Translations under genes and position numbers: made by a program | The notes under the pieces: model-generated | What the model was told of the DNA's origin: nothing | The model's input: the letters and a program-made list of their open reading frames with translations, nothing else | The model's database searches: none | Part shown: in pieces, positions 3,758-17,677 of the stretch | Position numbering within the stretch: position 1 is the stretch's first letter | Layout of the letters: each line of letters starts with the position of its first letter | From: a virus | Taxonomy: Duplodnaviria; Heunggongvirae; Uroviricota; Caudoviricetes | IMG/VR virus record: IMGVR_UViG_3300038345_000251 | Location: 247,248 to 311,247 of that record | Reading direction: 5' to 3' (one strand) | Length of the DNA stretch: 64,000 nt

Positions 3758-3820
3758 AGAAATCAATTTGTTTCATCAGATATTGGAGGTATCTACAAAA
3801 AAAGTTGCTGTTTGATTTCT
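3758..3820 (-). ncRNA. stem+ACAGCAA element with a Gly(UCC)-like anticodon hairpin
   Basis: AGAAATCAA-ACAGCAA...AGATA-CCTCCAA-TATCT...TTGATTTCT. Confidence 0.6.
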
Positions 3821-5255: not shown

Positions 5256-5331
5256 TGGAGCAGTGGACGGGACTCGGACCCGCAACCTTGACATTGGCAA
5301 TGTCACTATCTACCAATTGATATACCACTGC
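5256..5331 (-). tRNA. tRNA-Gly(GCC) with encoded CCA
   Basis: loop TT GCC AA, U73-CCA. Confidence 0.93.
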
Positions 5332-5336
5332 ATATA

Positions 5337-5412
5337 TGGATGGCTGGATTTAATACCAACAATAGCGAGACTGTTTCTCGCTGTTTTACCACGTGACATT
5401 AGACTACATCCA
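5337..5412 (-). pseudogene. degenerate tRNA-like element
   Basis: acceptor TGGATG/CATCCA, D- and T-like arms, non-canonical anticodon and T loops. Confidence 0.45.
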
Positions 5413-5415
5413 TAA

Positions 5416-5569
5416 TGGAGCAGGTGAACGGAATCGAACCGTCATAGCCAGATTGTTCAAACACTACGCTTCGGACGTACAATCGTTCTCCCATTTGTTT
5501 GAAATAATTACTCACAGTGAATTGGAACTGTATGGAAGTCTGGCGCACTAACCGTTGTGCTACACCTGC
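5416..5569 (-). tRNA. tRNA-Gly(UCC) interrupted by a 79-nt intron
   Basis: exon1 5569-5534 ends CCAGA-CTTCC; exon2 5454-5416 AA-TCTGG...T-CCA; joining gives a canonical tRNA. Confidence 0.9.
5455..5533 (-). other. AUACRG...C mini-intron in tRNA-Gly(UCC)
   Basis: starts ATACAG; ACAGT/ACTGT pairing; nested stem TTCAAACA/TGTTTGAA with T-like arm; terminal C. Confidence 0.8.
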
Positions 5570-5575
5570 AAAAAC

Positions 5576-5712
5576 AAAAGTCTTTTTACCCTCATTCGGA
5601 TTCGAACCGTTATCTTCAGACTATCTGTCTGCTATTCTACCTATTAAACTACTTATGCAAGGGATTTATTTTGGCGCATACGAAATTGATTATTGATTGC
5701 TGTAAGACTTTT
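5576..5712 (-). ncRNA. stem+ACAGCAA element enclosing a degenerate tRNA body
   Basis: AAAAGTCTT-ACAGCAA...D arm, CAGAC/GTCTG arm, CGG-TTCGAAT-CCG...AAGACTTTT. Confidence 0.55.
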
Positions 5713-5885
5713 TATTAATTTTCTCAGTTTAATTATAACTGTATATGGCGAAGGTTTTTGACCACTCTTTTTACTTACTTAGCTAGCAGTTATTCGATAA
5801 AAAAAGTAAGAAGTTATATCTGAAAGATATTTCGAAATTCTCTTTCATCTACGGAATCAGACACCTTCAAAACCGTAAGCCTCTT

Positions 5886-6617: not shown

Positions 6618-6687
6618 ATGTTTTTTATTATAAATAGTTTTTGGTTCGAAAAAAATGCGATAATGTAAAAGTTTTTTGTTCGATTTG

Positions 6688-6764
6688 TCGGGACGGCAGG
6701 AATTGAACCTGCATGTAACCAATTACACTTTCAACACCTTATCAGGGTGAGGTGATACGTCCCG
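6688..6764 (-). tRNA. atypical D-arm-less tRNA-Ile(GAU)-like RNA with long extra arm
   Basis: acceptor CGGGACG/CGTCCCG, CACC-CT GAT AA-GGTG, extra hairpin TGTAA/TTACA, T arm GCAGG/CCTGC; only about 7 nt where the D arm should be. Confidence 0.55.
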
Positions 6765-6779
6765 GAGATAAAATACGGA

Positions 6780-6950
6780 TTAAAACTCAACAGGCATACC
6801 CCTAAAAATGTATTTAGTAGAGGTATCGCCTATTTTTCTTCTTCTAAGTTGTTTATGTGCAAGTTTTTTAGTTACTTTTTTTGTTTTTAACCATTGTTTA
6901 TTTGCTTTACCAGCACAATAAAATCCTTTGAAATCTTTTATACTATGCAT
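6780..6950 (-). CDS. small basic hypothetical protein (56 aa)
   Basis: own translation MHSIKDFKGFYCAG...PVEF*. Confidence 0.45.
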   Translation of the reverse strand: MHSIKDFKGFYCAGKANKQWLKTKKVTKKLAHKQLRRRKIGDTSTKYIFRGMPVEF

Positions 6951-6969
6951 ATTATTGAATTTAAAATTG

Positions 6970-7040
6970 TTGGAGTAGAAAGATTCGAACTCTCACTTAC
7001 AGAGCCAGAATCTGTAGTGCTGCCATTACACCATACTCCA
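6970..7040 (-). tRNA. tRNA-Gln(CUG)
   Basis: U1-A72, ACAGA-TT CTG GC-TCTGT. Confidence 0.93.
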
Positions 7041-7049
7041 TAAAAATTG

Positions 7050-7172
7050 TTGGGGGTAGAGGAATCGAACCTCTGTCTCGTCTTTATGAGAGATTTGCTA
7101 AGAAATTGCTGCAAGCTTTTATATCGAAAAGCCTTTTTCGCTTTTCGTATGCTGCCACTACACCAACCCCCA
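7050..7172 (-). tRNA. atypical tRNA(CAU)-like RNA with a ~50-nt stem+GCAGCAA insert in the anticodon stem
   Basis: intact acceptor, D and T arms; TCT-CT CAT AA-AGA; insert GCTTTT/AAAAGC-TT-GCAGCAA. Confidence 0.6.
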
Positions 7173-7179
7173 ATTGTTT

Positions 7180-7386
7180 TTATTTGTCAACTAAATTATT
7201 TCTAAGTCTTTCAAATTCTTTTTTATCTTGTTTATTTTTCTTTTGTAATTTTTCTACTTTGTTATCATTGCTTCCACAATGTCTATCATAGTATTTTTTT
7301 ACTTTAAATGGATAATCATTAAAATCATCACCATAAACACCATGTTTGGATTTTGCTTTTTCAGAATGTAATCTAGTTTTAGACAT
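7180..7386 (-). CDS. small basic hypothetical protein (start moved to MSKTRL)
   Basis: 68 aa; the ORF-track extension overlaps a tRNA-like gene. Confidence 0.5.
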   Translation of the reverse strand: MSKTRLHSEKAKSKHGVYGDDFNDYPFKVKKYYDRHCGSNDNKVEKLQKKNKQDKKEFERLRNNLVDK

Positions 7387-7407
7387 AATTTTATGTTTTA
7401 AAATTTG

Positions 7408-7522
7408 TGTGGATGAACAGATTTGAACTGCTGACACGAAGTTTACCCAAAAAGATGATGCTGTTAATTTCCAGAACTGAAAACATATTGTCTTCTGCTC
7501 TACCAGACTGAGCTACATCCAC
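7408..7522 (-). tRNA. atypical tRNA-Pro(UGG)-like RNA with a stem+ACAGCA insert in the anticodon stem
   Basis: intact acceptor, D and T arms; loop TT TGG GT; insert GTTTTCAG-TT-CTGGAAAT-TA-ACAGCAT. Confidence 0.6.
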
Positions 7523-7531
7523 ATATTAGAC

Positions 7532-7585
7532 GGAAAACGCTTTTCATTGCTACCCAGTAATAATTTAACTTGCTGTGTATTTTCC
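7532..7585 (-). ncRNA. minimal stem+ACAGCAA element
   Basis: GGAAAAT-AC-ACAGCAA...TGGGT...GTTTTCC. Confidence 0.55.
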
Positions 7586-7589
7586 TTTG

Positions 7590-7674
7590 TCGGAGTGGGG
7601 GGATTCGAACCCCCAAGCCCATTACAGGCACAAGTTCCTTAGACTTGCGTGTCTACCAATTCCACCACACTCCG
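7590..7674 (-). tRNA. tRNA-Leu(AAG)
   Basis: class II Leu body, CAAGT-CT AAG GA-ACTTG. Confidence 0.9.
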
Positions 7675-8598
7675 TTTTTTCAAATCTTTTTTCCTATAAG
7701 GTAAATCGTATGATTTACACCATTTCACTATTGTTTTATCACAAACATTATAAAGTTTTGCAATATATCTAAAAGAAAAATTAGTAATTAAATCAAATAA
7801 TTCTTTTTTAGAAGGTCTATTTTTTACTTTTCTTTGTTTTAAATAATACTCATGTTGTTTAATTGTATGTTTTTCATCATATTGCTCAGATTTTTTATAA
7901 TAGTTTGTATATTGTTTACCGTTTTTTGATATTTTTATTTCTCCTTTTGGTACTTTAATTATTCCAATATGAGTAATGTCTTTAATTTTATTATTTGATA
8001 ATAGTTCTTTTAATTTATTATTTATTAAATCATGATTGTTTTTTACTATGTCTTCTGAAATTCTAATAACTTTCCAACCCAAAGAAGTTAATAATAAATC
8101 TTTTTTCTTATCATTTTCTTTTCTTTCTTCATCTAAAAGATGTTGTGAACCATCTATTTCAACCGCAATTTTTTCATTGATAAATGCAAAATCAATATAA
8201 TATGGAAAAATAGATTTCTCTCTTTCAATTAAATATTTTTTATCATATTCATTTTCTTGAAGAAATTTTATAAAACATTTTTCTGGATAAGAAGGTTCAT
8301 TTCTTTTTCTCCAAGCAGTTTCTTCAGGATGTTCTTTTAAATATTTAAGCCTTATTTCTTTTAGTTTTAATTTTGTTTCTTTTGTATGTTTAAAACTCTT
8401 AGGATATTTTTTATGTGACAATGTGATTGATTCTGAAAAATTTCTTGTTATATTACCTAATAGTTTTTCTCTAATCCACATTTTTGATTTAATATTGTAT
8501 TTTTTAACAATATCACGTATTGAACAACCATTTAAATATTCATTTCTTATTTTTTCTTTTTCTTCTTCAGTAAACAAATTATCATATTTTGAACTCAT
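7639..8598 (-). CDS. free-standing DUF559/Vsr-like (PD-D/ExK) homing endonuclease
   Basis: YYIDFAF..KIAVEIDGSQH..D..L...GWKVIRI motif; HTH C-terminus; 3' end overlaps tRNA-Leu. Confidence 0.8.
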   Translation of the reverse strand: MSSKYDNLFTEEEKEKIRNEYLNGCSIRDIVKKYNIKSKMWIREKLLGNITRNFSESITLSHKKYPKSFKHTKETKLKLKEIRLKYLKEHPEETAWRKRNEPSYPEKCFIKFLQENEYDKKYLIEREKSIFPYYIDFAFINEKIAVEIDGSQHLLDEERKENDKKKDLLLTSLGWKVIRISEDIVKNNHDLINNKLKELLSNNKIKDITHIGIIKVPKGEIKISKNGKQYTNYYKKSEQYDEKHTIKQHEYYLKQRKVKNRPSKKELFDLITNFSFRYIAKLYNVCDKTIVKWCKSYDLPYRKKDLKKRSVVELVDTQV

Positions 8599-8672
8599 AA
8601 TTTTATCATTTTATTATAAATATAAGAAAAAAATAAAAACGAACCGATATTTTAAAAAATTTAATGTCCTTG

Positions 8673-8830
8673 TCGTGCATACCAGAATCGAACTGGTGTT
8701 TACAGAATGGGCTTCTTATAAAGTATCGAACTTTCTTCATTCTCACCAAGATTAAAATAAGAAGCTAACTTTTTTCAGATTAAGTTTAACTGTATAAAAT
8801 CTGTCGTCCTAGCCACTAGACGAATGCACG
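8673..8830 (-). tRNA. tRNA-Glu(UUC) interrupted by an 86-nt intron
   Basis: exon1 ends ACAGA-TT TT; exon2 starts C AT-TCTGT. Confidence 0.88.
8710..8795 (-). other. AUACRG...C mini-intron in tRNA-Glu(UUC), position 35/36
   Basis: ATACAG..AACTT..CTGAAA..AAGTT; nested stem GCTTCTTAT/ATAAGAAGC with AAAG-TTCGATA-CTTT arm; terminal C. Confidence 0.8.
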
Positions 8831-8835
8831 AAATT

Positions 8836-8974
8836 TAGTATCTACACGTGAAGCAGGTGTGCACTCCTATCTCTTCACCCTTTTGTATATGTAACACCCA
8901 AGTCATGTTCATATACCTTGCCTCCAAAAGACGCTTGGGAATTTCTTTGAAAACCGTCTTTATCCTTGATACTA
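8836..8974 (-). ncRNA. putative structured intergenic RNA
   Basis: closing stem AGTATC/GATACT, GC-richer than its flanks, no ORF. Confidence 0.25.
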
Positions 8975-8975
8975 G

Positions 8976-9049
8976 TGGAGCGTATCGGAATCGAACCGAT
9001 GACCTCAACATTGCAAGTGTTGCGTTCTAGCCAACTGAACTAACGCCCC
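8976..9049 (-). tRNA. tRNA-Ala(UGC)
   Basis: G3-U70, loop CT TGC AA. Confidence 0.95.
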
Positions 9050-9056
9050 ATAAATC

Positions 9057-9173
9057 GGAAAACTTTATCTTTACGTCCAGTGGACGGGGTTGGACTTGAA
9101 CCAACGAACCTCTCATGTTTTCAATTAAAGTGAAAAATGTTAAACCATTAGCGTAAATTGCTGTATGTTTTCC
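9057..9173 (-). ncRNA. stem+ACAGCAA element with UUA anticodon arm and T arm (permuted tRNA-like)
   Basis: GGAAAAC-AT-ACAGCAA...TTTCA-CT TTA AT-TGAAA...GTTGG-TTCAAGT-CCAAC-CGTCC/GGACG...GTTTTCC. Confidence 0.6.
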
Positions 9174-9174
9174 T

Positions 9175-9249
9175 TGGCGGTGCATACGAGAATCGAACTC
9201 GTACCGCATGATAGACAGTCACGCATCCTAACCATTGGACCAATGCACC
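9175..9249 (-). tRNA. tRNA-Asp(GUC) with encoded CCA
   Basis: loop CT GTC TA, G73-CCA. Confidence 0.93.
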
Positions 9250-9267
9250 GTAAAAAAATGTATAATC

Positions 9268-9381
9268 AGAAAACGTCTTTAAAAATATTTCCATTATCTC
9301 CAAAGGAGACCTTTCAGTTTTTTTGCTGAAAGTTGGATTCGAACCAACAATTTTTTAAGCAAATGTTGCTGTATGTTTTCT
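9268..9381 (-). ncRNA. stem+ACAGCAA element with a T arm followed by a hairpin
   Basis: AGAAAAC-AT-ACAGCAA...GTTGG-TTCGAAT-CCAAC-TTTCAG/CTGAAA...GTTTTCT. Confidence 0.6.
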
Positions 9382-9585
9382 TAATACAAATATACTAATA
9401 AATAATTTAAAAGTCAATAAAACGAAGCATATATATTTTCTTTAGATAATACACGTCTGTATTAAATAGGTCATCATTGATTGCCTTTGGGTACATTGTT
9501 CCTTATCTCATACTATAAGTCAATGGTTTGCTACCGTCACAATCGGTTTTTGCTTCTGGCTTGTTAGGTATGAACTAACAAGTTG

Positions 9586-9804
9586 TGGGAAGGGGAGGAT
9601 TCGAACCTCCGAAGCCGTAAGGCAGCAGATTGTTCCATATAACTGATTCGAACAGTTGATTGCAAGTTTTTAACTTACTCCGACTTTATAACATTTTTTT
9701 GTTACCGTAAGCCTACGACTTTGACCACTTGTCTAATATGGAATTTGGTTTTCAGTTTGCTCTGTATTACAGTCTGCCCCATTTGACCACTCTGGAACCT
9801 TCCC
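9586..9804 (-). tRNA. tRNA-Tyr(GUA) interrupted by a 136-nt intron
   Basis: class II Tyr body; exon1 ends GCAGA-CT GTA; exon2 AA-TCTGC. Confidence 0.9.
9632..9767 (-). other. AUACRG...C mini-intron in tRNA-Tyr(GUA)
   Basis: ATACAG..CTGAAA; nested tRNA-like domain TTCCATAT/ATATGGAA with D arm GAC-AAGTGGTCAAA-GTC and T arm AACTG-TTCGAAT-CAGTT; terminal C. Confidence 0.8.
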
Positions 9805-9810
9805 ATTTAT

Positions 9811-10401
9811 TTACTGTATTAAAACACCTTGTTTGTTTTTTCTAGGTTTATAACCTGTTCTACCTAATTTCCAACCATTGTTTAAATATTCTTGAAGTTT
9901 TTCTTTTAATAAATATTTAACTTTACCTTCTTTATTAATCCAAATTCTTTTGTTTGTTGAATTTTCAGGTAACATTTTTTTTCTTGTTTTTTGTTTTGAT
10001 TCTTCTTTATGGTGTCTATTTTTCCATATAGTATTAAAAGAATCTTTGTTGTTTAAATAGATTTCTTGACTAATCCAAAATTTTTCACCATTTTTGTCTA
10101 TAACTGGTACCATTCCATTAGTACTAAAATACTTACCACCTATTTGAACATTATAGCAATTTTCATCTTTTATTAAAGTTTCATTTACTATTTCCTTTTC
10201 ATATAAAAAGGCTTCTTCTGATGTATTAAAATATTTTAATATTTCTTTTTTAAAGCATTCTATTCCATATTTAATAATTGCTTTTTTAAGAAATTTTCCA
10301 GAACCCATATAACCGTCATCAATATTATCTGTGTTATGTACACCATAATAATATTTGTTGTTAATGGTGTTTGTAATTTTATAAAAATAATGATATTTCA
10401 T
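9811..10401 (-). CDS. free-standing Seg-like GIY-YIG homing endonuclease
   Basis: YFYKITNTINNKYYYGVH..DDGYMGSG N-terminus. Confidence 0.8.
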   Translation of the reverse strand: MKYHYFYKITNTINNKYYYGVHNTDNIDDGYMGSGKFLKKAIIKYGIECFKKEILKYFNTSEEAFLYEKEIVNETLIKDENCYNVQIGGKYFSTNGMVPVIDKNGEKFWISQEIYLNNKDSFNTIWKNRHHKEESKQKTRKKMLPENSTNKRIWINKEGKVKYLLKEKLQEYLNNGWKLGRTGYKPRKNKQGVLIQ

Positions 10402-10595
10402 AACATTTACAGTTTCTTTTTATATAAATAGTAGAAAAACTGTAAATGTAAAGTTTTTTTTCAAAAAAATAACCGATTATACACGAACTCGGTAAACATT
10501 CCTGACTTAACGATTCAGATGGCGATTATTGCTGCAAGAGCAACCACGTGTTTCGATTCCTGGTACCTAGGACCGCACATTTTAACATCATAAAA

Positions 10596-10868
10596 ACAGT
10601 ATTAAGGAACTTTATTTGGTATCTGGCTGTAACCTTATATGCCATATTGCAATTTGTTTATTCTTCGAACAACATATAAGAGCTTCACACACCATTAGAG
10701 AGTTGACCGTAAAGGCTGTTCTTCCTGTTTGAACTATTCCGTCTTCCCTTCGTGTTATCCTTAGTGTGTACCATTGAGGTCATACGTTTTGTGTTCGATT
10801 CACTACGTACTAACGGTTAATCCGTTCACTGCTCTCCCAGCTTGTTCCTGAACTCCTAATAATACTGT
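10596..10868 (-). ncRNA. putative ~270-nt structured ncRNA
   Basis: closing stem ACAGTATTA..GGAAC/GTTCC-TTAATACTGT, no ORF. Confidence 0.35.
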
Positions 10869-10880
10869 AAAGTTATATCG

Positions 10881-10954
10881 TGGGAGTGGTTGGATTCGAA
10901 CCAACGTCTTTCATCTTGTAAGGATGACAGTCTATACCACTGGCGTACACTCCC
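10881..10954 (-). tRNA. tRNA-Val(UAC)
   Basis: TCATC-CT TAC AA-GATGA. Confidence 0.93.
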
Positions 10955-11107
10955 AAAAGCACCACATTTACGGTAACGTGGTCAACCAAGTAATTACTCA
11001 ACGAGTAATATAAGTAAAATACCTACTGATGGAGTAACATATCACACTTAGTTACTCACCATCCCTCCAGTGTGTGAATCCCTTAAAATCTTTCTTACCT
11101 CGGTATT

Positions 11108-11653
11108 TTATTGATAATCTTCAGTTTGTCTAATTCCAAATTTATGAAAGTATCGCAAAGGTCTCCATTTTTTACCATTAACGATAAATCCCCATTTAAT
11201 TTTAGGTCTACCTTCAAACATTAAAGTCCAAGCACCACCTTTAGGAATCTGTAAATAATGTAAGTCTTCTGCTTTTGAAAACCATATTGAATCATCCATA
11301 TTGAAGAAGTTTTTCCAAGAATTGAAAATACCTTCAACGTAACATTTCCGTTGGTTTTTAACTTCATAAGGCGTTCCGTCTTTCCATATTGTAACAGTAT
11401 CGTCAGGATTCTTATTATCTTCGTAAGGCTTTACATTCCAATAATGTCCTTTTAGAACAATACTGAGTAAGTTAGCACTATGGTCGTGAAAATATCTGTT
11501 ATCATCACTTTTAATCCAATGATGTATTCTCATTGAATAACCAAAGAAGATAAAAGTCCATCTAATTAAATAAGGTGCTTCAGGAATACCAAGTTTTTCT
11601 GCCCATCTAATTTGAAAGTTTTTAAATGGTTTCGTGTTTGTACTTCCTTTCAT
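11108..11653 (-). CDS. cupin-like phage protein
   Basis: RIHHWIKSDDNRYFHDH..LSIVLKGHYWN His-rich motif. Confidence 0.55.
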   Translation of the reverse strand: MKGSTNTKPFKNFQIRWAEKLGIPEAPYLIRWTFIFFGYSMRIHHWIKSDDNRYFHDHSANLLSIVLKGHYWNVKPYEDNKNPDDTVTIWKDGTPYEVKNQRKCYVEGIFNSWKNFFNMDDSIWFSKAEDLHYLQIPKGGAWTLMFEGRPKIKWGFIVNGKKWRPLRYFHKFGIRQTEDYQ

Positions 11654-11679
11654 AAAATTTTAATTAAAATTAAACTTTG

Positions 11680-11817
11680 TCAAGGGTGAAGGATTCGAAC
11701 CCCCTGGATTCATCTGGAACGTCTAGAATACCCAAACTATCCCCTTTCGGTCTTCCCTATGTATCTGCTGTTAGCTACTCAGCAGTAAGGCTGTTTTACC
11801 AATTAAACTAACCCCTG
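11680..11817 (-). tRNA. tRNA-like RNA with a large insert replacing the anticodon arm
   Basis: acceptor CAGGGGT/ACCCTTG, D and T arms intact; insert has CTGCTG/CAGCAG hairpin with ACAGCAG, CC-GAAA-GG and TTTGGGT. Confidence 0.5.
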
Positions 11818-11825
11818 TAAATTTG

Positions 11826-11900
11826 TGTGCCCTGAATGAATCGAACATCCGCATTTTCTGGGACGTAAATCCCATTGGTCTGCCACTAGCCTAAAGACAC
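11826..11900 (-). pseudogene. atypical tRNA-Val(UAC)-like RNA with a 6-nt anticodon loop
   Basis: TGGGA-TTTACG-TCCCA, extended variable region. Confidence 0.5.
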
Positions 11901-12196
11901 ATTTCTCACCTAAGATTAACACGATTTTATCTGTCATTCTCACGCACTAGGTACATTCTTGTTTTTTGTGCTGTTCTCACCCCTTTTATGACCCCTAGAC
12001 GCTACTCTATGCATCCTATATTTGGAATTAATGATGCTACCCTACGTCCACACTCATCATAACGTTTAACTGTGGCTTCCATTACCTGTTCCAATCATTT
12101 AATGGACTCCCCCACAGTGAAGCTGTTAATCGGATTTCAACGCTCTCTATTGAAGATTTGAACTTCTACATACCCTAGTAATAGAAAAATATAAAC

Positions 12197-12327
12197 AGGA
12201 AACGTTTTTTGTTTTGTTTTCGCCACTAAACTAACAATGAGAACACACAATCTCATTGTGGGGGATTCGAACCCACCGTCTTCTTTTTTGCAGAAAGTTA
12301 ACAATTTAAAATTGCTGTATGTTTCCT
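12197..12327 (-). ncRNA. circularly permuted tRNA-Cys-like RNA inside a stem+ACAGCAA bracket
   Basis: order: AGGAAAC-AT-ACAGCAA, CTTT-CT GCA AA-AAAG, T arm, ACAATGAG/CTCATTGT acceptor hairpin, D arm, GTTTCCT. Confidence 0.65.
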
Positions 12328-12564
12328 TATCTTATTGTTTTGTGTGTTTTTATTTCAAAAAAATGATGGATGCACAACCACTTCCTATTCCATCATTGTG
12401 TCATTACGTTTTGTGCCAACGTACCCAATTCCACAACACTTATTGGGTAACTTCGTGTAGTTTCAACAATCAAATTACTAAGATTGTAATGGACAGCCAA
12501 AGTAAACTTTGGAACTAATGTAACCACCATTAAATTTCTGCCGTTGTTACGAAAAATAATTCTC

Positions 12565-12633
12565 GGAAAACTAAATTTTAGCGTTTCTGAATTAAAAGTT
12601 CGGAGCTTAAATAAAAGTTGCTGTACGTTTTCC
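12565..12633 (-). ncRNA. stem+ACAGCAA element with a Lys(UUU) anticodon hairpin
   Basis: GGAAAAC-GT-ACAGCAA...TCCGAA-CT TTT AA-TTCAGA...GTTTTCC. Confidence 0.6.
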
Positions 12634-12690
12634 TATATTTTATATTTCTGATACAAATATACAAACTTATTTTTAAAAAAACAAAATTTT

Positions 12691-12772
12691 CAGGGACTTA
12701 CACTGTTTTAATCATGCCTAAACTAACTATCTATTGATAGTGGTGGAATCAAACCAACCTTCTGATGCCAAG
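12691..12772 (-). ncRNA. permuted tRNA-like fragment (T arm, acceptor hairpin, D arm)
   Basis: TGG-TTTGATT-CCA, ACTATC-AATA-GATAGT, TA-GTTT..AAAC. Confidence 0.45.
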
Positions 12773-12948
12773 CGGAAGCGGAGGGATTTGAACCCACGAC
12801 CCACGGATTAGCTTGATGTGTGGAATACGATACCACAATTCGAACTGCAAATGCTACGAGTTTTTCCTTAAACTACATCAAAACATGTTCGTTTCGGTGA
12901 ACAATTCCGTATACAGTCCGTTGCTCTGACCAACTGAGCTACGCTTCC
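12773..12948 (-). tRNA. tRNA-Asn(GUU) interrupted by a 102-nt intron
   Basis: exon1 ends ACGGA-CT GT; exon2 T AA-TCCGT; G73. Confidence 0.9.
12811..12912 (-). other. AUACRG...C mini-intron in tRNA-Asn(GUU), position 35/36
   Basis: ATACGGAATT-GTTC-ACCGAAAC-GAAC; nested TTGATGT/ACATCAA domain; terminal C. Confidence 0.82.
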
Positions 12949-12955
12949 AAAGTTA

Positions 12956-13050
12956 AAACACTTGTTATCAGCCGATTAGAAGTAAGTCTTTCAAAGCATT
13001 GAATTTTAATGAGGTCTGCTTCCTCCTGTACACTTACTAAACAAGTGTTA
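12956..13050 (-). ncRNA. putative ~95-nt structured RNA
   Basis: 10-bp closing stem AACACTTGTT/AACAAGTGTT, inner AGTAAGT/ACTTACT and GAGG/CCTC. Confidence 0.35.
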
Positions 13051-13057
13051 TAAGTAG

Positions 13058-13235
13058 TACTCTCGTTGGGATTCGAACCCAAGACCCACAGCTTAGAACC
13101 CATAATGAGATTCGAACTCAATATTCATTACCTTAGCAATGTTCTATCCTAAATAGAAATTATGGGTTAATAAATCCGTTTCGGTGGATAATTCCGTATG
13201 AAGGCTGTTGCTCTATCCAACTGAGCTACGAGAGC
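13058..13235 (-). tRNA. tRNA-Arg(UCU) interrupted by a 104-nt intron
   Basis: exon1 ends ACAGC-CT TC; exon2 T AA-GCTGT. Confidence 0.9.
13096..13199 (-). other. AUACRG...C mini-intron in tRNA-Arg(UCU)
   Basis: ATACGGAATT-ATCC-ACCGAAAC-GGAT; nested cloverleaf AACCCATAAT/ATTATGGGTT with D, AC-like and T arms; terminal C. Confidence 0.82.
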
Positions 13236-13277
13236 ATCTATATTTTAGTTAAAAAATAAATTCAAAGTAAATGGTTA

Positions 13278-13610
13278 TTAGAGGATTTCCCTAACAATAC
13301 CATAAATGTTATTTCTGCTAATCCAACCGTTCATATGACCGTGATTATTACCAATCAAGTAAGATGAACCTTTTTTGTTGGTTTTAATAGAATGAATTAA
13401 ATGAAGATAATAATGTCCATTTACTTTTGAAAGAACTATATCTCTTTTTTTTAATTCAGTTTCTTCAGTAACAGGTTCGCATATTACAGGTTGTTTAGAT
13501 TTTAAAATTGGTGTCATAGAATTACCAATTCCTGTAATTTTGCAGGTTTCTCCGTTACGAAGATGTTCAGCAGAAAAACGATTTTCAAAACCACTATAAG
13601 TGTATTCCAT
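13278..13610 (-). CDS. S24/S26 peptidase-like protein
   Basis: GNSMTPIL...LHLIH...GNN pattern. Confidence 0.65.
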   Translation of the reverse strand: MEYTYSGFENRFSAEHLRNGETCKITGIGNSMTPILKSKQPVICEPVTEETELKKRDIVLSKVNGHYYLHLIHSIKTNKKGSSYLIGNNHGHMNGWISRNNIYGIVREIL

Positions 13611-13657
13611 AATCGTTATTTTTATTGAAATTATTATTAATTAAGGCTTATGCCTTG

Positions 13658-14001
13658 TGGACCAGAGCAGGGTCGAACTGCTGTCTTAAATACCGTCAAC
13701 AAAAAAATTGGTTACAAGCTTTACTATGTTCGTTCCTGAAGTCTATAAACATAGAAGAACTGAAAGTTACAGGAAGAACGATTTTAATTCGAATATTTTT
13801 TTGTTCTATCCTAGTTTAAAAATATTCTATTGTATCTTCTGTTTCCAGGTTTTACAAGACCCAGCAATACTTAGGCAATAGCGTAAGCGTATGCAAGTTG
13901 GTTTTCACTAACTTTGTCGTTTGTTGTTTGTAGAATTTTAAGTGTCACCACTACTTGTTTTCTTGTCAACTAATATCCAATCAAAACCAAAATACTGGCC
14001 C
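13658..14001 (-). ncRNA. ssrA: tmRNA; predicted tag (A)TNDKVSENQLAYAYAIA
   Basis: GGGCCAG/CTGGTCC-A acceptor with G3-U70, T arm, internal tag ORF 13924-13871. Confidence 0.88.
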
Positions 14002-14020
14002 ATTCTGTATATTTAATTTG

Positions 14021-14093
14021 TGACCCCGAAGGGACTTGAACCCTTGACCCCAGCATTAAAAGTGCCGTGCTCTACCAACTGAGCTACGAGGCC
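14021..14093 (-). tRNA. tRNA-Lys(UUU)
   Basis: loop CT TTT AA. Confidence 0.95.
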
Positions 14094-14107
14094 ATTAGTC
14101 TTAAGTG

Positions 14108-14180
14108 TGGTGTGGGGTGGAGTTGAACCACCGACACATGGATTTTCAGTCCATTGCTCTACCACCTGAGCTACCACACC
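14108..14180 (-). tRNA. tRNA-Phe(GAA)
   Basis: ATGGA-CT GAA AA-TCCAT. Confidence 0.95.
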
Positions 14181-14261
14181 ATATTTAAAAATTTTTATAT
14201 CGTCAAAAATATCTGAAAAAACGATGGATTCATACCATAGGCTATTAAGCAACCTTTCATG

Positions 14262-14333
14262 TACTCCCAATAGGAATCGAACCTATATTACTGGTTCCGT
14301 AGACCAACGTTTTATCCGTTAAACTATGGAAGC
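14262..14333 (-). tRNA. tRNA-Arg(ACG)
   Basis: loop CT ACG GA. Confidence 0.93.
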
Positions 14334-14349
14334 AGAACAGTTATGGTGT

Positions 14350-14424
14350 TGGCAGGAGTTAGAGGATTCGAACCCCTACCTGTGGTTTTGGAGACCAATA
14401 TGCTACCATTAACACCAAACTCCT
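14350..14424 (-). tRNA. tRNA-Trp(CCA) with encoded CCA
   Basis: loop CT CCA AA, G73. Confidence 0.93.
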
Positions 14425-14436
14425 ATATATTTTTTC

Positions 14437-14514
14437 GGAAAACAAAGTTGATTTATCATTCCAATTACCCTAAAATTGTGATTAAATTAAATTAAAATTT
14501 GCTGTATGTTTTCC
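14437..14514 (-). ncRNA. stem+ACAGCAA element with a Pro(AGG) anticodon hairpin
   Basis: GGAAAAC-AT-ACAGCAA...CAATT-TT AGG GT-AATTG...GTTTTCC. Confidence 0.6.
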
Positions 14515-14707
14515 TGTTTTTTTCCACGAAGGGAGAAGTCTAACTCCCACTTCGTTTAACGACTTTTTACTACCATAATGAATCTTCGAAGATACCCAAA
14601 TAAGATGTAGCCGTTATGAATTCGTTAATCAACAGTGCATCTGTGCCATAAAAATGGTTGATGTTGTCCGCTTTCACGTACTATTTAGGTAATTCATTAA
14701 AATATTT

Positions 14708-14788
14708 GCTATGGCAAGAGGAATCGAACCTCTGTCTCCACGTGCTATACTAAAGCTAGACGTCCTGTACCACTAGACGATACCACAG
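14708..14788 (-). tRNA. atypical tRNA-like RNA with 8-bp acceptor stem and ambiguous anticodon arm
   Basis: CTGTGGTA/TGCCATAG; Glu/Asp-like D arm; loop readable as CT TTA GT or TT AGT AT. Confidence 0.45.
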
Positions 14789-14800
14789 ATAAGTTTTATT

Positions 14801-14901
14801 CCACAAAGTATTGCTTGCTGCGTAGTCCGTTTTCGATTATCGGATTCAAACTTATAAAGCATCATAACCGTCAATGCTTCTACGCCCTGGGCACTTTGTG
14901 A
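14801..14901 (-). ncRNA. putative ~100-nt multibranch RNA
   Basis: CACAAAGT/ACTTTGTG, GCGTAG/CTACGC, AAGCAT/ATGCTT, TCCG/CGGA stems. Confidence 0.4.
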
Positions 14902-14906
14902 TTTTG

Positions 14907-14981
14907 TCGGGAAGACAGGACTCGAACCTGCGACCCCTGGTTCCCAAAACCAGTGTTCTGAACCAACTGAACTACTTCCCG
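14907..14981 (-). tRNA. tRNA-Pro(UGG)
   Basis: CTGGT-TT TGG GA-ACCAG. Confidence 0.95.
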
Positions 14982-15090
14982 ATAATTAAAAAAGTTAAAA
15001 TATAGCTAGCAGATAATAACTGACTACTTCTTGTTTTTTAATGACGTGCCATTTCGTCTCCAAGCCCATATCTGTATAATTTTAACTTTG

Positions 15091-15164
15091 TTGCGTAGAC
15101 TGGATTTGAACCAGTGACCGATAGGATATGAATCTATTGCTACTACCAACTGAGCTACTACGCA
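15091..15164 (-). tRNA. tRNA-Met(CAU)
   Basis: loop TT CAT AT; initiator versus elongator not resolved. Confidence 0.85.
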
Positions 15165-15295
15165 ATATTTGATAGAACCCAACGAAACTATCTGTCCTTG
15201 ATTTCTTTCTTAGTATTATTGTCCACTGCATTTGTGGCTTCAAGGTAGTTAATAAATGAATGCATCATTACATCAACTAAAGGGTTTTTGATTTG

Positions 15296-15882
15296 CGGAG
15301 AGTATAGGATTCGAACCTATGGACCGAAAAACGGTCAACAGTTTTCCTTACCACTATAGTTTTCACTACCAACAATATCATCATGGATTGCACATTTATA
15401 ACAATCTTTATATCAGGATTGCTCCCGTGCCAGGTGCTCCTATTGTTGTTTTGTGGTCTGGAACATACCTCAACCAATATTGAAATCTTGCAAGTATGGC
15501 TGTTACAAGGAAAGAATAATTCATTTCCATCTATAACCAATTTCAACTTAGGTTATTACCATCTGTTCTCTACACACTGTCTATTATTAATCCTAATGCT
15601 TTCACATGCAATGCAGAAGTATTTTTCCATTAGGATTATTTTAACATTGGCTCGGTATTAGCATATTTGGACTGTCCTCTTCCGTCTGAATTCTAAACGA
15701 TGCTTCTGTGTTACCACCAGCATTAATCAGGAATGGTTTGTTATTTAGACGATTATCCGATATATTCCTGCACATCCAAACTTAGCCTTCACCGAATTTG
15801 GTAATTTCTACATTATAAATTTCTTTATAAGCACTCAAATTAACTTTAAGACTGCCGCAATCGACCACTCTGCCAACTCTCC
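15296..15882 (-). tRNA. tRNA-Ser(UGA) interrupted by a group I intron
   Basis: exon1 ends GCAGT-CT T; exon2 GA AA-ACTG; class II Ser body, G73. Confidence 0.9.
15347..15847 (-). mobile_element. group I intron (501 nt, no endonuclease ORF) at tRNA position 34/35
   Basis: 5' exon ends in U, intron ends in G; P/Q/R/S-like cores AATTCGGTGAAG, AATACCGAGC, GTAGAGAACAGA, GAGGTATGTTCCA. Confidence 0.85.
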
Positions 15883-16066
15883 GAAAAAAATGAAACTTAT
15901 TCTGAACTCTCTCACGATTATAATAAATATTAACTTCCAGCCTTTGACTTGCACGTTAACAGACATTATCACCACTTAGGTATTCTGACACTACAGAGGT
16001 TATTTAAAATAAATGTTTATTCAACATTACTGTCAGTATTTATTTCATTAGAATATCTCTCTAGTA

Positions 16067-16188
16067 TGCTACAGGTAGGAATCGAACCTACGAAATTGAA
16101 TATTGTTGTGCCAAATTCAAATAACAGTTTCATCCATAGTCACACTTTAGGAATCAACCATTGTGTTGGGCCACTTCACCACTATAGC
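16067..16188 (-). tRNA. atypical tRNA-like RNA with enlarged anticodon/variable region (possible Arg-CCU loop)
   Basis: acceptor GCTATAG/CTGTAGC, D and T arms intact; TT CCT AA in a poorly paired arm. Confidence 0.45.
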
Positions 16189-16289
16189 CTTTGAGACAGT
16201 TTTTATCAGAATCAATATCACATATCATCTGATATTTAATATACAGTATTTACCAACATGTCAAAGAACATTGTTTCGTAAAAACATTA

Positions 16290-16297
16290 CAAAGATA
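16290..16297 (-). promoter_or_regulatory. Bacteroidetes-type -7 promoter element (TATCTTTG) feeding the tRNA array
   Basis: TAnnTTTG consensus; similar sites at 3912, 9387, 12654 and 17101. Confidence 0.6.
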
Positions 16298-16425
16298 CGA
16301 AGAATTTTTTAATTTTCCAAATCTTTTGTAATTTATTTCTTCATTTATTATTTTGAAGAACTTTTTTTTACATAATCAAGAAATATGCCAAGTTTTTTAA
16401 TTTAACAAATTTTTTGATTTATTTG

Positions 16426-16506
16426 TAGCCCTGAAAGGACTTGAACCTTCACGCCTGTGGCATCCGCTTTTGAGACGGACGTGTCTACCAATTCCACCAC
16501 AGGGCC
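16426..16506 (-). tRNA. tRNA-Leu(CAA)
   Basis: class II Leu body, CT CAA AA. Confidence 0.93.
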
Positions 16507-17272
16507 ATATAATAAAAGGTTATCGTTATAATAGATGTGCCTTAGATTTACACCTCTCACGGAAGGTTTGAGTAAACTTTCGTTCTACACTCGCTAACAC
16601 TCATGAATGTTAGTATCTTTAAAGTAACCTCAACTACTTTTATTCCGACTATACCATTTCACACTCTGTACACAAGCGGTAATTTTATACTTGGCCATAC
16701 TCTTTGTCATTAAATTACTAAGTGTTCATCATCCTTAATGAATTTACTTTTCCTAATAACCTATGTTTTTATTTCAATGAACTTCGTTTATGTTTCTAAC
16801 AATAACCGTGCCACGTTTTTTATACATATTATTTATAAAAAAAACCCCCGAAGTTTTTATCTTGGAGGTTGGGAATATATTGTGGTTAGAAACCTATGTG
16901 TCTTGTTTTTTCTTTATTCCTTCTCCAAGGTTAAGCATCCAAGTTCTCTTCTTGATGCTTTTGGGTCAATAACTGATGGTACGCCAAACCAACGACTTGC
17001 TGATTCCAAGCCGTTAAATTTGTGATTATATGTACACATCATTTTATTCATATCATTAAGGTTTAAAGAAATTACTCAAATATAAATATAAAACTTTTTA
17101 CAAAAATACGTAATTTTTATAAAAAAAACAAATATTTTTTTAATTTTTTTTGAAGAACTATGGGATTCGAACCCAAATAATGCCTTACCATTAGTTCTTA
17201 ACCTTGGTTTTGAACGTATAAACGCCCATCTCCACCACCAAATTTTATTTATTGTCGTTATTGGCCGACATT

Positions 17273-17344
17273 GTGATGTATATAGGAATCGAACCCATCT
17301 TGTCACGTTTAGAGTGTGCCGTTCTACCGATGAACTAATACATC
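17273..17344 (-). tRNA. amber suppressor tRNA(CUA)
   Basis: GATGTAT/ATACATC-A, D and T arms canonical, loop CT CTA AA; anticodon stem has only 3 central pairs. Confidence 0.75.
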
Positions 17345-17389
17345 AAAATGGGGATTTATAAGGGAAATCCCCAAAACCATAATAATAAG

Positions 17390-17677
17390 TTATTTAACCG
17401 TTTCCAAATTCTTAAAAAGTTCACCTGAATCGTCTCTTACCGCGAGTGCTGTAATTGTATAGTTCAAATCAGGTTCACGAAATGCTGAAAATCTAATTCC
17501 CATTTTTTGAAGTCTGTTAAACCACTTATCAGTATCTGCATACAAATATATAAGGTATTCATTGTTCCAATCTTGATTAGGGTTGTTAATCATCCATTGT
17601 GCCACAGCATGTCCACCTTGAACACATCCATATACAGGTCTAAGTTTTTTATTCACTAATACGTACAATCTTTTCAT
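17390..17677 (-). CDS. peptidyl-tRNA hydrolase-like (PTH2-type) protein
   Basis: LYVLV...VQGGHAVAQW...FREPDL...TALA pattern. Confidence 0.65.
   Translation of the reverse strand: MKRLYVLVNKKLRPVYGCVQGGHAVAQWMINNPNQDWNNEYLIYLYADTDKWFNRLQKMGIRFSAFREPDLNYTITALAVRDDSGELFKNLETVK

What the first reader, a model, noticed from the sequence alone, without database searches (positions are those of the whole stretch)
12197..12327. Circularly permuted tRNA-Cys-like gene bracketed by the ACAGCAA stem
The order is anticodon arm (CU-GCA-AA), T arm, acceptor 3' strand, loop, acceptor 5' strand (8-bp ACAAUGAG/CUCAUUGU), D arm, all closed by AGGAAAC/GUUUCCU. It resembles a permuted intron-exon layout. Known: permuted tRNA genes occur in some algae and archaea and mature through circular intermediates; I do not know of them in phages. 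Element 9268-9381 has the same order, more decayed.
Basis: partly seen in the sequence, partly recalled or inferred. Interest (0 to 1): 0.7.

Follow-up and report, generated by a model that had tools for sequence, protein, structure and literature searches.

The report
Phage tRNA-mimic RNA with ACAGCAA handle
This 131-base stretch of a 393-kb phage is a real, conserved small-RNA gene shaped like a cysteine tRNA written in rotated order and clamped by a conserved "handle"; it is most likely a Y-RNA-like partner of the phage's Ro60-shaped protein, not a tRNA that decodes.

Summary
On the minus strand, 12327-12197 reads: 7-bp clamp, AU, ACAGCAA, small hairpin, anticodon arm (loop CUGCAAA), T arm, closed 8-9-bp acceptor hairpin, UA, D arm, A-rich linker, clamp. 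ARAGORN calls the rotated sequence tRNA-Cys(GCA).

A 115-nt counterpart in another phage contig keeps the same anticodon arm, and every other helix has compensatory changes. Across 25 related elements, 98% of the modelled pairs form.

The maturation idea (circular intermediate, permuted intron-exon) is not supported:
- The clamp has no bulge-helix-bulge.
- The genome has no splicing endonuclease or RtcB.
- A normal tRNA-Cys exists at 3245-3319.
- Acceptor hairpins in relatives vary from 5 to 9 bp.
- Sibling RNAs carry only an anticodon arm.

The shared part is the handle: clamp, ACAGCAA, 3' UG. In 10-11 of 11 diverse cultured phages, this handle lies beside a DUF2828/DUF7788 gene. This genome has such a gene; its model matches Ro60 best, and a mini-handle abuts its start codon.

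Best reading: a YrlA-like tRNA mimic with a new handle. Binding and expression are inferred, not shown.

Earlier notes of this scan report the same family in many other phage genomes. I found no description in the searchable literature.

The parts
12321..12327 (-). Clamp helix, 5' strand (AGGAAAC)
   Evidence: Pairs with 12197-12203 in the MFE fold. The clamp sequence covaries among family members: GGAAAAC/GUUUUCC, AGAAUAC/GUAUUCU, AGGUUCG/CGAACCU, AGAAAUC/GAUUUCU.
12312..12320 (-). Linker AU plus invariant ACAGCAA (12318-12312): the conserved part of the handle
   Evidence: The same word follows a 6-9-bp clamp in 8 elements of this window and in phages of many hosts. Counts beside DUF2828 genes: 30 on the gene strand, 0 on the other strand; same-composition control 7-mers average 2.2.
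12300..12316 (-). Small local hairpin AGCAAUU-UUA-AAUUGUU, specific to this member
   Evidence: MFE fold. It is not conserved in relatives.
12283..12297 (-). Anticodon-arm mimic CUUU-CUGCAAA-AAAG (GCA at 12291-12289)
   Evidence: The identical 15-nt arm occurs in handle RNAs of at least 5 other lineages: L074, L077, the L066 group and Leptolyngbya phage JY46. The loop equals that of the phage's own tRNA-Cys.
12260..12276 (-). T arm GUGGG-UUCGAAU-CCCCC (one U.C mismatch)
   Evidence: Model R1 hit. Helix 1 is 99.2% paired across 25 elements.
12234..12259 (-). Closed 'acceptor' hairpin, 8-9 bp with an 8-10-nt loop
   Evidence: All 7 modelled pairs of this helix change on both sides across relatives, and 97.5% of cells are paired.
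12216..12233 (-). UA (tRNA positions 8-9) and D arm GUUU-AGUGGCGA-AAAC, with the A14, G18-G19 and A21 equivalents
   Evidence: helix 3 is 97% paired.
12195..12215 (-). A-rich linker (12215-12204), clamp 3' strand GUUUCCU (12203-12197) and 3' tail GU
   Evidence: UG directly after the clamp occurs in 63 of 161 stem-ACAGCAA elements, where about 10 are expected.
9268..9381 (-).
   Evidence: window:9297-9348, model R1, 19.2 bits.
9057..9173 (-). Sibling handle RNA with a CUUUAAU-loop arm, a T arm and a short closed hairpin
12565..12633 (-). Sibling handle RNA (GGAAAAC-GU-ACAGCAA) with a Lys-like CUUUUAA loop
14437..14514 (-). Sibling handle RNA, short type
7532..7585 (-). Sibling handle RNA, 54 nt, lying between two tRNA genes
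5576..5712 (-). Sibling handle RNA whose clamp AAAGUCU/AGACUUU encloses a tRNA-like body in normal (not rotated) order
3759..3819 (-). Sibling handle RNA (GAAAUC-AA-ACAGCAA...GAUUUC-UG)

Best explanation
The element is a gene for a small non-coding RNA of an apparently undescribed phage family. The family has a constant 'handle': a 6-9-bp clamp joining the two ends, 0-2 nt, unpaired ACAGCAA, and a 3' UG tail. The handle carries a variable cargo made of tRNA parts.

In this member the cargo is a complete tRNA-Cys look-alike: anticodon arm, variable loop, T arm, D arm and a closed acceptor hairpin. The RNA chain enters and leaves between the D arm and the anticodon arm, which is why the gene reads as a rotated tRNA.

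Proposed mechanism, inferred by analogy with Ro60/Y RNA particles:
1. The RNA is cut out of the tRNA-array transcript.
2. The handle is bound by the phage's Ro60-shaped DUF2828/DUF7788 protein.
3. The L-shaped tRNA mimic, which has no free CCA end, stays exposed as bait or adaptor for proteins that recognise tRNA. These could be nucleases, repair or modification enzymes, or defence effectors.

Shown here: the structure, its conservation and covariation, family membership, genomic linkage of the handle to the protein gene, and the Ro60-like fold of the protein. Inferred: transcription, RNA ends, protein binding and the downstream role.
For: 1. Structure
- The fold reproduces all helices (z = -3.17).
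- The rotated sequence is called tRNA-Cys.
- Model R1 scores 31.9 bits.
- 98% of pair cells form against 65% in shuffles, and 14 of 16 pairs are compensatory.

2. Counterparts
- L074:9724-9838(-) has the same anticodon arm, while the clamp, T stem, acceptor hairpin and D stem all differ with pairing kept.
- L044 has two further rotated-tRNA members. One carries a Tyr GUA loop and sits directly upstream of a normal tRNA-Tyr.

3. Link between handle and closed acceptor
- Among 132 T-arm...D-arm model hits, a closed hairpin of 6 bp or more occurs in 14 of 28 hits with ACAGCAA upstream, against 11 of 104 without (Fisher p = 1.7e-5).

4. Link to the protein
- The genome encodes a 555-aa DUF2828 + DUF7788 protein.
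- Its AlphaFold model (pLDDT 72.9) has Ro60/TROVE structures as its 12 best PDB matches, aligned over the full length, E = 5e-6 to 5e-4.
- tblastn finds relatives in 609 GenBank phage records.
- In 10-11 of 11 diverse records, stem-ACAGCAA elements lie next to the gene on its strand: 30 against 0 on the other strand, controls 2.2. Five of them are rotated tRNA mimics: wV8, FBKp34, S13, Bill and PJN02.
- In this genome and in relative G008, a 36-40-nt mini-handle ends 2-5 nt before the protein's start codon, with one compensatory clamp change between the two.
- The tRNA arrays of T4 and T5 have no such element.

5. Precedent
- YrlA Y RNAs have the same T arm - closed acceptor - D arm order and are bound by Ro60 (PMC4201824).
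- The Rfam YrlA model hits an RNA beside the DUF2828 gene of mycobacteriophage Acquire49, flanked by two ACAGCAA RNAs.
- The Ro60-like gp130 of phage Bas63 counters the Ppl defence, and its authors guessed that neighbouring 'tRNA genes' are Y RNAs (bioRxiv 10.1101/2024.10.10.617714).
Against:
- In this genome the protein gene lies about 100 kb from the RNA. Adjacency is seen in other phages only.
- Co-occurrence is imperfect. Complete relative G006 has the protein but no handle RNA near its tRNAs. Contig G002 (82% complete) has handle RNAs but no detectable DUF2828/DUF7788.
- In the cultured phages the protein gene often sits next to tRNA arrays, so linkage to the array and linkage to the protein are partly confounded.
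- The Ro60 likeness is structural only and modest: TM 0.37-0.48 for the 12 best hits bar one (0.25-0.27), no TROVE Pfam hit, no PDB hit by sequence profile.
- The Rfam YrlA and Class I models do not hit this element.
- In this member's MFE fold, AGCAA of the handle pairs in a local hairpin.
Confidence: 0.6

Rival explanations
1. True permuted tRNA-Cys gene. The clamp brings the ends together, the leader and trailer are cut off, the D arm is ligated to the anticodon stem (circular intermediate), and the acceptor loop is opened by RNase P and a 3' nuclease. The result is a decoding tRNA-Cys.
For: - The rotated sequence is called tRNA-Cys(GCA) by ARAGORN.
- The tertiary-contact nucleotides are present: U8, A14, GG, A21, the UUCGAAU loop and a possible G15:C48 pair.
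- The phage has two Rnl2-type RNA ligase domains and many intron-bearing tRNAs, so some splicing activity must exist.
Against: - There is no bulge-helix-bulge, no splicing endonuclease domain and no RtcB.
- A normal tRNA-Cys is already present.
- The acceptor is 8-9 bp here and 5-9 bp in relatives, with loops as short as 3-4 nt.
- The discriminator would be A, not the U73 that CysRS uses (established knowledge of E. coli tRNA-Cys identity).
- The anticodon stem has only 4 pairs, 3 of them A-U, and the T stem has a mismatch.
- Siblings with the same handle have no acceptor, D or T arms, so the handle cannot be a tRNA-maturation signal in general.
Confidence: 0.05
2. Nicked two-piece tRNA mimic. 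The RNA keeps its handle, but RNase P cuts inside the acceptor loop and CCA is added, as reported for M. smegmatis YrlA. That would give an end that could be charged or could bind CCA-recognising proteins.
For: - M. smegmatis YrlA is cleaved by RNase P and receives CCA in vivo when its acceptor stem is 7 bp (PMC4201824).
- This element has a long acceptor helix stacked on a T arm, with an 8-10-nt loop.
Against: - The acceptor + T stack is 13-14 bp here against the 12 bp that RNase P measures.
- Stack length varies from 10 to 14 bp in relatives.
- There are no data on RNA ends.
Confidence: 0.08
3. A protein-independent element of the tRNA array: either a processing or punctuation signal in the polycistronic precursor, or a free decoy for host anticodon nucleases, with no role for the Ro60-like protein.
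For: - All 8 window copies lie in the tRNA array on the tRNA strand, several wedged 4-10 nt from tRNA ends.
- Anticodon-arm look-alikes are enriched in the family: 47 of 161 against 8.2 +/- 3.0 after shuffling.
- Imperfect co-occurrence with the protein.
Against: - In A511, PC14, 6ec, JY46 and Acquire49 the elements flank the protein gene itself.
- The mini-handle sits at the protein's start codon.
- An invariant single-stranded 7-mer beside a covarying stem suggests a dedicated binding protein.
Confidence: 0.15
4. Decaying relic: a tRNA fragment rearranged by recombination or by a mobile intron-like cassette, no longer functional.
For: - The array is full of odd tRNA pieces, mini-introns and homing-endonuclease genes.
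- The element is not at a syntenic position in relatives.
- Element 9268-9381 looks degraded.
Against: - Compensatory changes occur in every helix across distant phages.
- An identical 15-nt anticodon arm is kept in at least 5 lineages.
- The same architecture is seen in phages of Enterobacteria, Bacillus, Enterococcus and gut or rumen hosts.
Confidence: 0.07

Closest known systems
YrlA-type bacterial and phage Y RNAs bound by Ro60/Rsr (Rfam RF02553; Chen et al. 2014, PMC4201824)
   Same: - Terminal stem joining the 5' and 3' ends, enclosing a tRNA-like module in the order T arm - closed acceptor-like stem-loop - D arm.
- No free CCA end.
- Encoded in genomes that have a ring-shaped Ro60-type protein.
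- Also reported in phages.
   Different: - The protein-binding module differs: clamp + ACAGCAA + 3' UG instead of the bulged helix with GNCGAAN0-1G.
- This member also keeps a complete anticodon arm.
- The partner candidate is a DUF2828/DUF7788 protein, not a Pfam TROVE protein.
- The Rfam model does not detect the element.
- The RNAs are multicopy and lie in the tRNA array.
Class I RNAs of dictyostelid amoebae (Rfam RF01414; Kjellin et al. 2021, PMC7919456)
   Same: - A short covarying 6-bp stem joining the ends.
- A conserved, mostly unpaired motif next to the 5' strand, with invariant positions that fit ...U..C..CAA.
- A variable interior and a 3' CUGU.
- The Rfam model hits six short phage handle RNAs at 22-39 bits; the cut-off is 41.5.
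   Different: - Class I RNAs are eukaryotic, 42-65 nt, and have their own promoter element.
- tRNA-like cargo has not been described for them.
- Their known binding protein is an RRM protein.
- This 131-nt element is not hit, and all phage hits are below the curated cut-off.
Circularly permuted tRNA genes of Cyanidioschyzon merolae and some archaea (reviewed in PMC4090602; details from my own knowledge)
   Same: The 3' half lies upstream of the 5' half, and the acceptor ends are linked by a short loop.
   Different: Those genes have a bulge-helix-bulge at the junction, a splicing endonuclease and ligase, exact 7-bp acceptor stems, and they supply the cell's only copy of that tRNA. None of this holds here.
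'Enigmatic' tRNA introns of Lak megaphages (Devoto et al. 2019, PMC6784885)
   Same: - Large gut phages with TAG recoding.
- tRNA genes with short inserts that may themselves hold a tRNA-like fold.
- This window has such inserts too.
   Different: Those are inserts inside tRNA anticodon loops. This element stands alone between a terminator-like hairpin and non-coding DNA.
Stable non-tRNA RNAs of the T4 and T5 tRNA clusters (rnaC, rnaD; RNA1, RNA2, etc., as annotated in NC_000866 and NC_005859)
   Same: Small stable RNAs, some tRNA-like, encoded among phage tRNA genes and of unknown function.
   Different: They carry no clamp-ACAGCAA handle.

Membership tests
Circularly permuted tRNA gene | The 3' half (anticodon arm, T arm, acceptor 3' strand) is encoded upstream of the 5' half (acceptor 5' strand, D arm) | tested here: met
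   Sequence reading. ARAGORN calls the rotated construct tRNA-Cys(GCA) in most of the 186 (of 243) junction variants it calls.
Circularly permuted tRNA gene | Bulge-helix-bulge motif at the leader/trailer junction, plus a splicing endonuclease to cut it | tested here: not met
   The closing helix is an uninterrupted 7-bp stem. PF01974 is absent from the complete genome, while the controls rang in 4 archaea.
Circularly permuted tRNA gene | Canonical 7-bp acceptor stem that is opened to give mature 5' and CCA ends | tested here: not met
   The stem is 8-9 bp here. In relatives it is 5-9 bp with loops of 3-16 nt. Opening of the loop could not be tested.
Circularly permuted tRNA gene | Supplies a tRNA species that the genome otherwise lacks | tested here: not met
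   A canonical tRNA-Cys(GCA) lies at 3245-3319 (ARAGORN; Rfam 61.9 bits).
Circularly permuted tRNA gene | A circular intermediate and a re-ordered mature tRNA | not testable with these tools
YrlA Y RNA (RF02553) | Terminal stem enclosing T arm - closed acceptor-like stem-loop - D arm | tested here: met
YrlA Y RNA (RF02553) | Scores with the Rfam covariance model (gathering score 69 bits) | tested here: not met
   No YrlA match in 11600-13300 at E up to 10. As a positive comparison, Acquire49 L055:4508-4616 scores 39.8 bits.
YrlA Y RNA (RF02553) | GNCGAAN0-1G motif in the Ro60-binding module | tested here: not met
   By reading, the module next to the terminal stem is AU-ACAGCAA. The only CGAA in the element is in the T loop.
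YrlA Y RNA (RF02553) | Encoded with, and bound by, a Ro60/TROVE protein | tested here: inconclusive
   There is no TROVE Pfam hit, but there is a DUF2828/DUF7788 protein whose model matches Ro60 structures best. It lies about 100 kb away. Binding was not tested.
Clamp-ACAGCAA 'handle' RNAs (family defined in this scan; no publication found) | A 6-9-bp covarying clamp joining the ends, 0-2 nt, invariant ACAGCAA, and UG after the 3' strand | tested here: met
   AGGAAAC-AU-ACAGCAA ... GUUUCC-UGU.
Clamp-ACAGCAA 'handle' RNAs (family defined in this scan; no publication found) | Occurs in phage genomes that encode a DUF2828-family Ro60-like protein | tested here: met
   The protein is in this genome and a mini-handle lies at its start codon. 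Adjacency holds in 10-11 of 11 cultured phages. Exceptions are noted.
Dictyostelium Class I RNA (RF01414) | Scores with the Rfam model (gathering score 41.5 bits); length 42-65 nt | tested here: not met
   No hit on this 131-nt element. Short phage relatives reach 22.4-39.3 bits, all below the cut-off.

The most novel reading that the evidence does not exclude
The clamp-ACAGCAA handle is the docking site of a widespread phage Ro60-like ring protein, and the cargo is a modular display of chosen tRNA parts. The loops seen here copy those of Cys, Lys, Asn, Tyr, Phe and other tRNAs. The particle would then act as a decoy, sensor or repair platform aimed at host tRNA-cleaving or other defence systems, in line with Bas63 gp130 countering Ppl. 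The same handle in the unexplained Class I RNAs of social amoebae would point to one ancient RNA-protein particle shared by phages and eukaryotes.
Probability: 0.22. Interest if true: 0.85.

Novelty: new variant of a known kind. Interest (0 to 1): 0.6.

Why it matters
- **A possible new Y-RNA-like class.** Its protein-binding handle differs from all described Y RNAs. It is present in many well-studied phages (Felix O1-like, A511, SPO1-like relatives, Campylobacter and Staphylococcus phages) as well as in giant gut phages. Some of these RNAs sit at or beside features annotated as pseudo- or odd tRNAs.
- **A testable partner for a common phage protein.** The DUF2828 Ro60-like protein has one member already tied to counter-defence.
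- **A practical warning for annotation.** Rotated or partial tRNA look-alikes in phage tRNA arrays should not be annotated as broken or permuted tRNA genes.
- **A route into why phages display specific anticodon arms.** The recurring, sequence-identical anticodon arms (for example the Cys-type arm kept in at least 5 lineages) make this question directly testable.

Tried and rejected
- **Close DNA relatives:** megablast against GenBank phages found nothing useful.
- **Protein structure and sequence:**
  - The single-sequence AlphaFold model was too poor to use (pLDDT 39).
  - Sequence and profile searches of the protein against PDB found nothing.
  - The first PF11443 genome search failed; Pfam was run on the ORFs instead.
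- **Alignments:** MAFFT alignments of the tRNA-like core were not in structural register. I built the model from three sequences that did align.
- **Synteny:** a search with the neighbouring ORF 11108-11653 showed the element is not at the same place in 17 related contigs.
- **Co-occurrence tests that were not informative:**
  - DUF2828 was not found in five IMG/VR contigs that carry the handle, but these are 14-82% complete.
  - Raw genome-wide counts of 6-bp-stem + ACAGCAA sit at control level in these AT-rich genomes.
  - The lineage-specific pattern GAAAN{3,4}ACAGCAA did not discriminate either.
  - Restricting the count to within 1 kb of tRNAs worked.
- **Readings considered and rejected:**
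  - Group I permuted intron-exon: no ribozyme family in Rfam, and the flanks are too short.
  - BHB intron.
  - attP-like tRNA fragment: does not explain the D arm and acceptor 5' strand.
  - CRISPR-like repeat: no regular spacing.
  - ACAGCAA as a promoter: the downstream complementary strand covaries.
- **Promoters and terminators:** the sigma-70-type scan around the element was at shuffle level.
Full report
**Setting.** The window lies in a single 392,823-bp virus contig rated complete. Positions 2,900-17,500 hold a tRNA array, entirely on the minus strand. It contains:
- 20 of the window's 21 ARAGORN tRNAs, including a normal tRNA-Cys(GCA) at 3245-3319 and a CUA suppressor;
- a tmRNA;
- at least six further tRNAs that Rfam detects only when it allows 40-107-nt inserts in the anticodon loop.

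**The observation.** Read on the minus strand, 12327-12197 contains in order:
- AGGAAAC, then AU, then ACAGCAA;
- a small hairpin;
- CUUU-CUGCAAA-AAAG;
- AAGACG;
- GUGGG-UUCGAAU-CCCCC;
- ACAAUGAG-loop-CUCAUUGU;
- UA, then GUUU-AGUGGCGA-AAAC;
- an A-rich linker;
- GUUUCCU.

Three results support it:
- RNAfold recovers every one of these helices (-33 kcal/mol, z = -3.17).
- I rotated the sequence in silico, placing the acceptor 5' strand and D arm before the anticodon arm, T arm and acceptor 3' strand. ARAGORN made a call on 186 of 243 junction variants, tRNA-Cys(GCA) in most.
- No Rfam family matches the element at E up to 10.

**It belongs to a family.**
- The word AUACAGCAA led to eight elements in the array. 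Each has a 6-9-bp closing stem that differs in sequence but stays complementary, followed by ACAGCAA.
- An exact search for GGAAAACATACAGCAA in IMG/VR found the same module in the tRNA arrays of other large phage contigs.
- L044 holds two more rotated-tRNA members. One has a CUGUAAC (Tyr) loop and lies just upstream of a normal tRNA-Tyr.
- A search for ACAGCAA followed by the Cys-type arm found L074:9724-9838(-). This 115-nt counterpart has the identical arm CUUUCUGCAAAAAAG, but a different clamp (AGGUUCG/CGAACCU), T stem (CCGGG/CCCGG), acceptor hairpin (GUACGAG/UUCGUAU) and D stem (GUGU/GCAC), all still paired.
- The same arm also occurs in short handle RNAs that have no T, D or acceptor parts (L077), and in members with only a T arm (Leptolyngbya phage JY46, the L066 group).

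**Covariation.**
- A covariance model of T arm - closed acceptor - D arm, built from three other phages, finds 12216-12276 at 31.9 bits.
- On the 25 best matches, 98.0% of pair cells are standard pairs against 65.0% in shuffles and 38-54% when the partner columns are slid.
- 14 of 16 pairs change on both sides, including all 7 pairs of the closed acceptor helix.
- The alignment is fitted to the model, which favours pairing. The slid controls and the three independent source phages argue that the signal is real.
- Model hits preceded by ACAGCAA have a closed hairpin in 14 of 28 cases, against 11 of 104 without it (p = 1.7e-5). Most of the rest are ordinary tRNA-tRNA junctions.

**Why it is probably not a permuted tRNA gene.**
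- The clamp is a plain helix without bulge-helix-bulge.
- The complete genome lacks the splicing-endonuclease domain and RtcB; positive controls rang for both searches. It does have two Rnl2-type ligase domains, so ligation as such is not excluded.
- A normal tRNA-Cys is present.
- The 'acceptor' is 8-9 bp here and 5-9 bp with loops of 3-16 nt in relatives. The acceptor + T stack therefore ranges from 10 to 14 bp, not the 12 bp that RNase P, CCA enzyme, synthetases and EF-Tu rely on (established tRNA knowledge).
- The handle is shared with RNAs that carry only an anticodon arm. Whatever reads the handle cannot be a tRNA-assembly pathway.

**What the handle travels with.**
L049:2368-4035 (genome 357367-359034) encodes a 555-aa DUF2828 + DUF7788 protein.
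- With a 34-sequence alignment, AlphaFold gives pLDDT 72.9.
- Its 12 best PDB matches are all Ro60/TROVE rings, aligned over the full length, E = 5e-6 to 5e-4, TM 0.37-0.48 for all but one (human Ro60 9nen, 0.25-0.27). They include frog and human Ro60, Deinococcus Rsr and Thermus phage phiLo Ro60.
- The Pfam TROVE model and PDB sequence searches do not detect the protein.
- tblastn finds relatives in 609 GenBank phage records.
- I fetched 11 records from different hosts with 3-kb flanks. Stem-ACAGCAA elements occur 30 times on the gene strand and never on the other strand. Same-composition control 7-mers average 2.2.
- In A511, PC14, 6ec, JY46, FBKp34 and Acquire49 the elements directly flank the gene.
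- Five of the phages have rotated tRNA mimics like ours.
- The T4 and T5 tRNA arrays have none.

**Linkage inside this lineage.**
- Among complete relatives, G006 and G008 have the protein, G007 has a divergent DUF7788 protein, and G009 and G010 have none.
- Handle RNAs within 1 kb of tRNAs number 11, 0, 3 and 2 in G000, G006, G007 and G008. G010 has 1, which is at control level. G009 was not fetched.
- In G000 and G008, a 36-40-nt mini-handle (clamp, AA, ACAGCAA, loop, clamp, UG) ends 2-5 nt before the protein's AUG, with one compensatory clamp change between the two genomes. G006 has a degenerate copy.
- That position is typical of autogenous translational control. It is the most direct hint in this genome that the protein reads the handle. 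This is an inference.

**Comparison with known RNAs.**
- YrlA Y RNAs have the same T arm - closed acceptor - D arm order, are modified like tRNAs and bind Ro60. One of them is cut by RNase P and receives CCA (PMC4201824).
- Phage phiLo Ro60 binds two Y-like RNAs with a CGAA motif and binds host PNPase (PMC12135203).
- Here the binding module is different (ACAGCAA), and the Rfam YrlA model misses the element. It does hit an RNA beside the DUF2828 gene of Acquire49, and that RNA is flanked by two ACAGCAA RNAs.
- The Rfam model of Dictyostelium Class I RNAs hits six short phage handle RNAs at 22-39 bits, below its 41.5 cut-off.
- The published description of Class I RNAs fits the handle: a 6-bp covarying stem, an adjacent conserved motif, a 3' CUGU (PMC7919456).
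- The Ro60-like gp130 of Bas63 counters the Ppl defence, and its authors guessed that adjacent 'tRNA genes' are Y RNAs.
- A text search for DUF2828 found no paper on phage RNAs.

**Cargo.** Across 161 stem-ACAGCAA elements collected here (some are chance matches), 47 hold a hairpin with a canonical-looking 7-nt anticodon loop, against 8.2 +/- 3.0 after shuffling. UG follows the clamp in 63. The commonest triplets are UUU, CGA and GCA.

**Verdict.**
- The permuted layout is real, but it is best read as a YrlA-like tRNA mimic on a new handle, probably the partner RNA of the phage's Ro60-shaped protein.
- Transcription, RNA ends, binding and function remain untested.
- Co-occurrence with the protein is imperfect.
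- Earlier notes of this scan reached similar readings on other genomes. I used them as leads and re-tested the protein fold, the adjacency and the Class I likeness myself.

Noticed in passing
G000 genome 357322-357361 (= L049:2323-2362), outside the window: A 40-nt mini-handle (GAAUUU-AA-ACAGCAA-loop-GAAUUC-UGA) ends 5 nt before the AUG of the DUF2828/Ro60-like gene. Relative G008 has the same arrangement with a compensatory clamp change, and G006 has a degenerate copy. This looks like a possible autoregulatory operator.
   Followed up: partly
window 12773-12948, 13058-13235, 5419-5569, about 9590-9805 (minus strand): tRNA-Asn, tRNA-Arg (or a UCA suppressor), tRNA-Gly(UCC) and tRNA-Tyr each carry inserts of roughly 80-140 nt in the anticodon loop. 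The inserts begin AUAC(A/G)G and end in C. The Tyr insert holds a whole nested tRNA-like fold (9633-9742). They are too short for group I introns, and I found no BHB in the one I checked (tRNA-Arg).
   Followed up: partly
window about 15330-15890 (minus strand): A tRNA-Leu(UAA)-like gene appears to be split after CUU of its anticodon loop by about 540 nt. This is the classic position of the cyanobacterial group I intron, but Rfam reported no group I match.
   Followed up: no
window 17273-17344 and 13655-14001 (minus strand): A CUA-anticodon suppressor tRNA, which hints at TAG recoding, and a phage-encoded tmRNA (49.2 bits, just over the Rfam cut-off of 47).
   Followed up: no
window 12353-12393 and 12100-12190 (minus strand): Upstream of the element lies a 9-bp hairpin followed by UUUUUUU, which looks like a terminator. 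Downstream lies a lone T-arm-like hairpin (GAAG-UUCAAAU-CUUC) with no recognisable tRNA around it.
   Followed up: no
L054:1465-2016 (Listeria phage A511): A ROOL RNA match (87.5 bits, cut-off 99.1) lies between tRNA genes, about 1 kb upstream of the three handle RNAs and the DUF2828 gene gp57.
   Followed up: no
L055:4508-4616 (Mycobacterium phage Acquire49): A YrlA-like RNA (Rfam 39.8 bits) sits between two short ACAGCAA handle RNAs, just downstream of the gene annotated 'Ro-like RNA binding protein'. Both RNA types therefore occur beside one protein gene.
   Followed up: partly
window 9811-10401 and 7639-8598 (minus strand): ORFs that look like homing endonucleases are interspersed in the tRNA array. 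By eye, the 196-aa ORF has a GIY-YIG-like N-terminus.
   Followed up: no
L103:39586-39658 (phage T5, minus strand): A lone 7-bp-stem + UACAGCAA element lies antisense to T5.079, near the bidirectional terminator. It may be a chance match.
   Followed up: no
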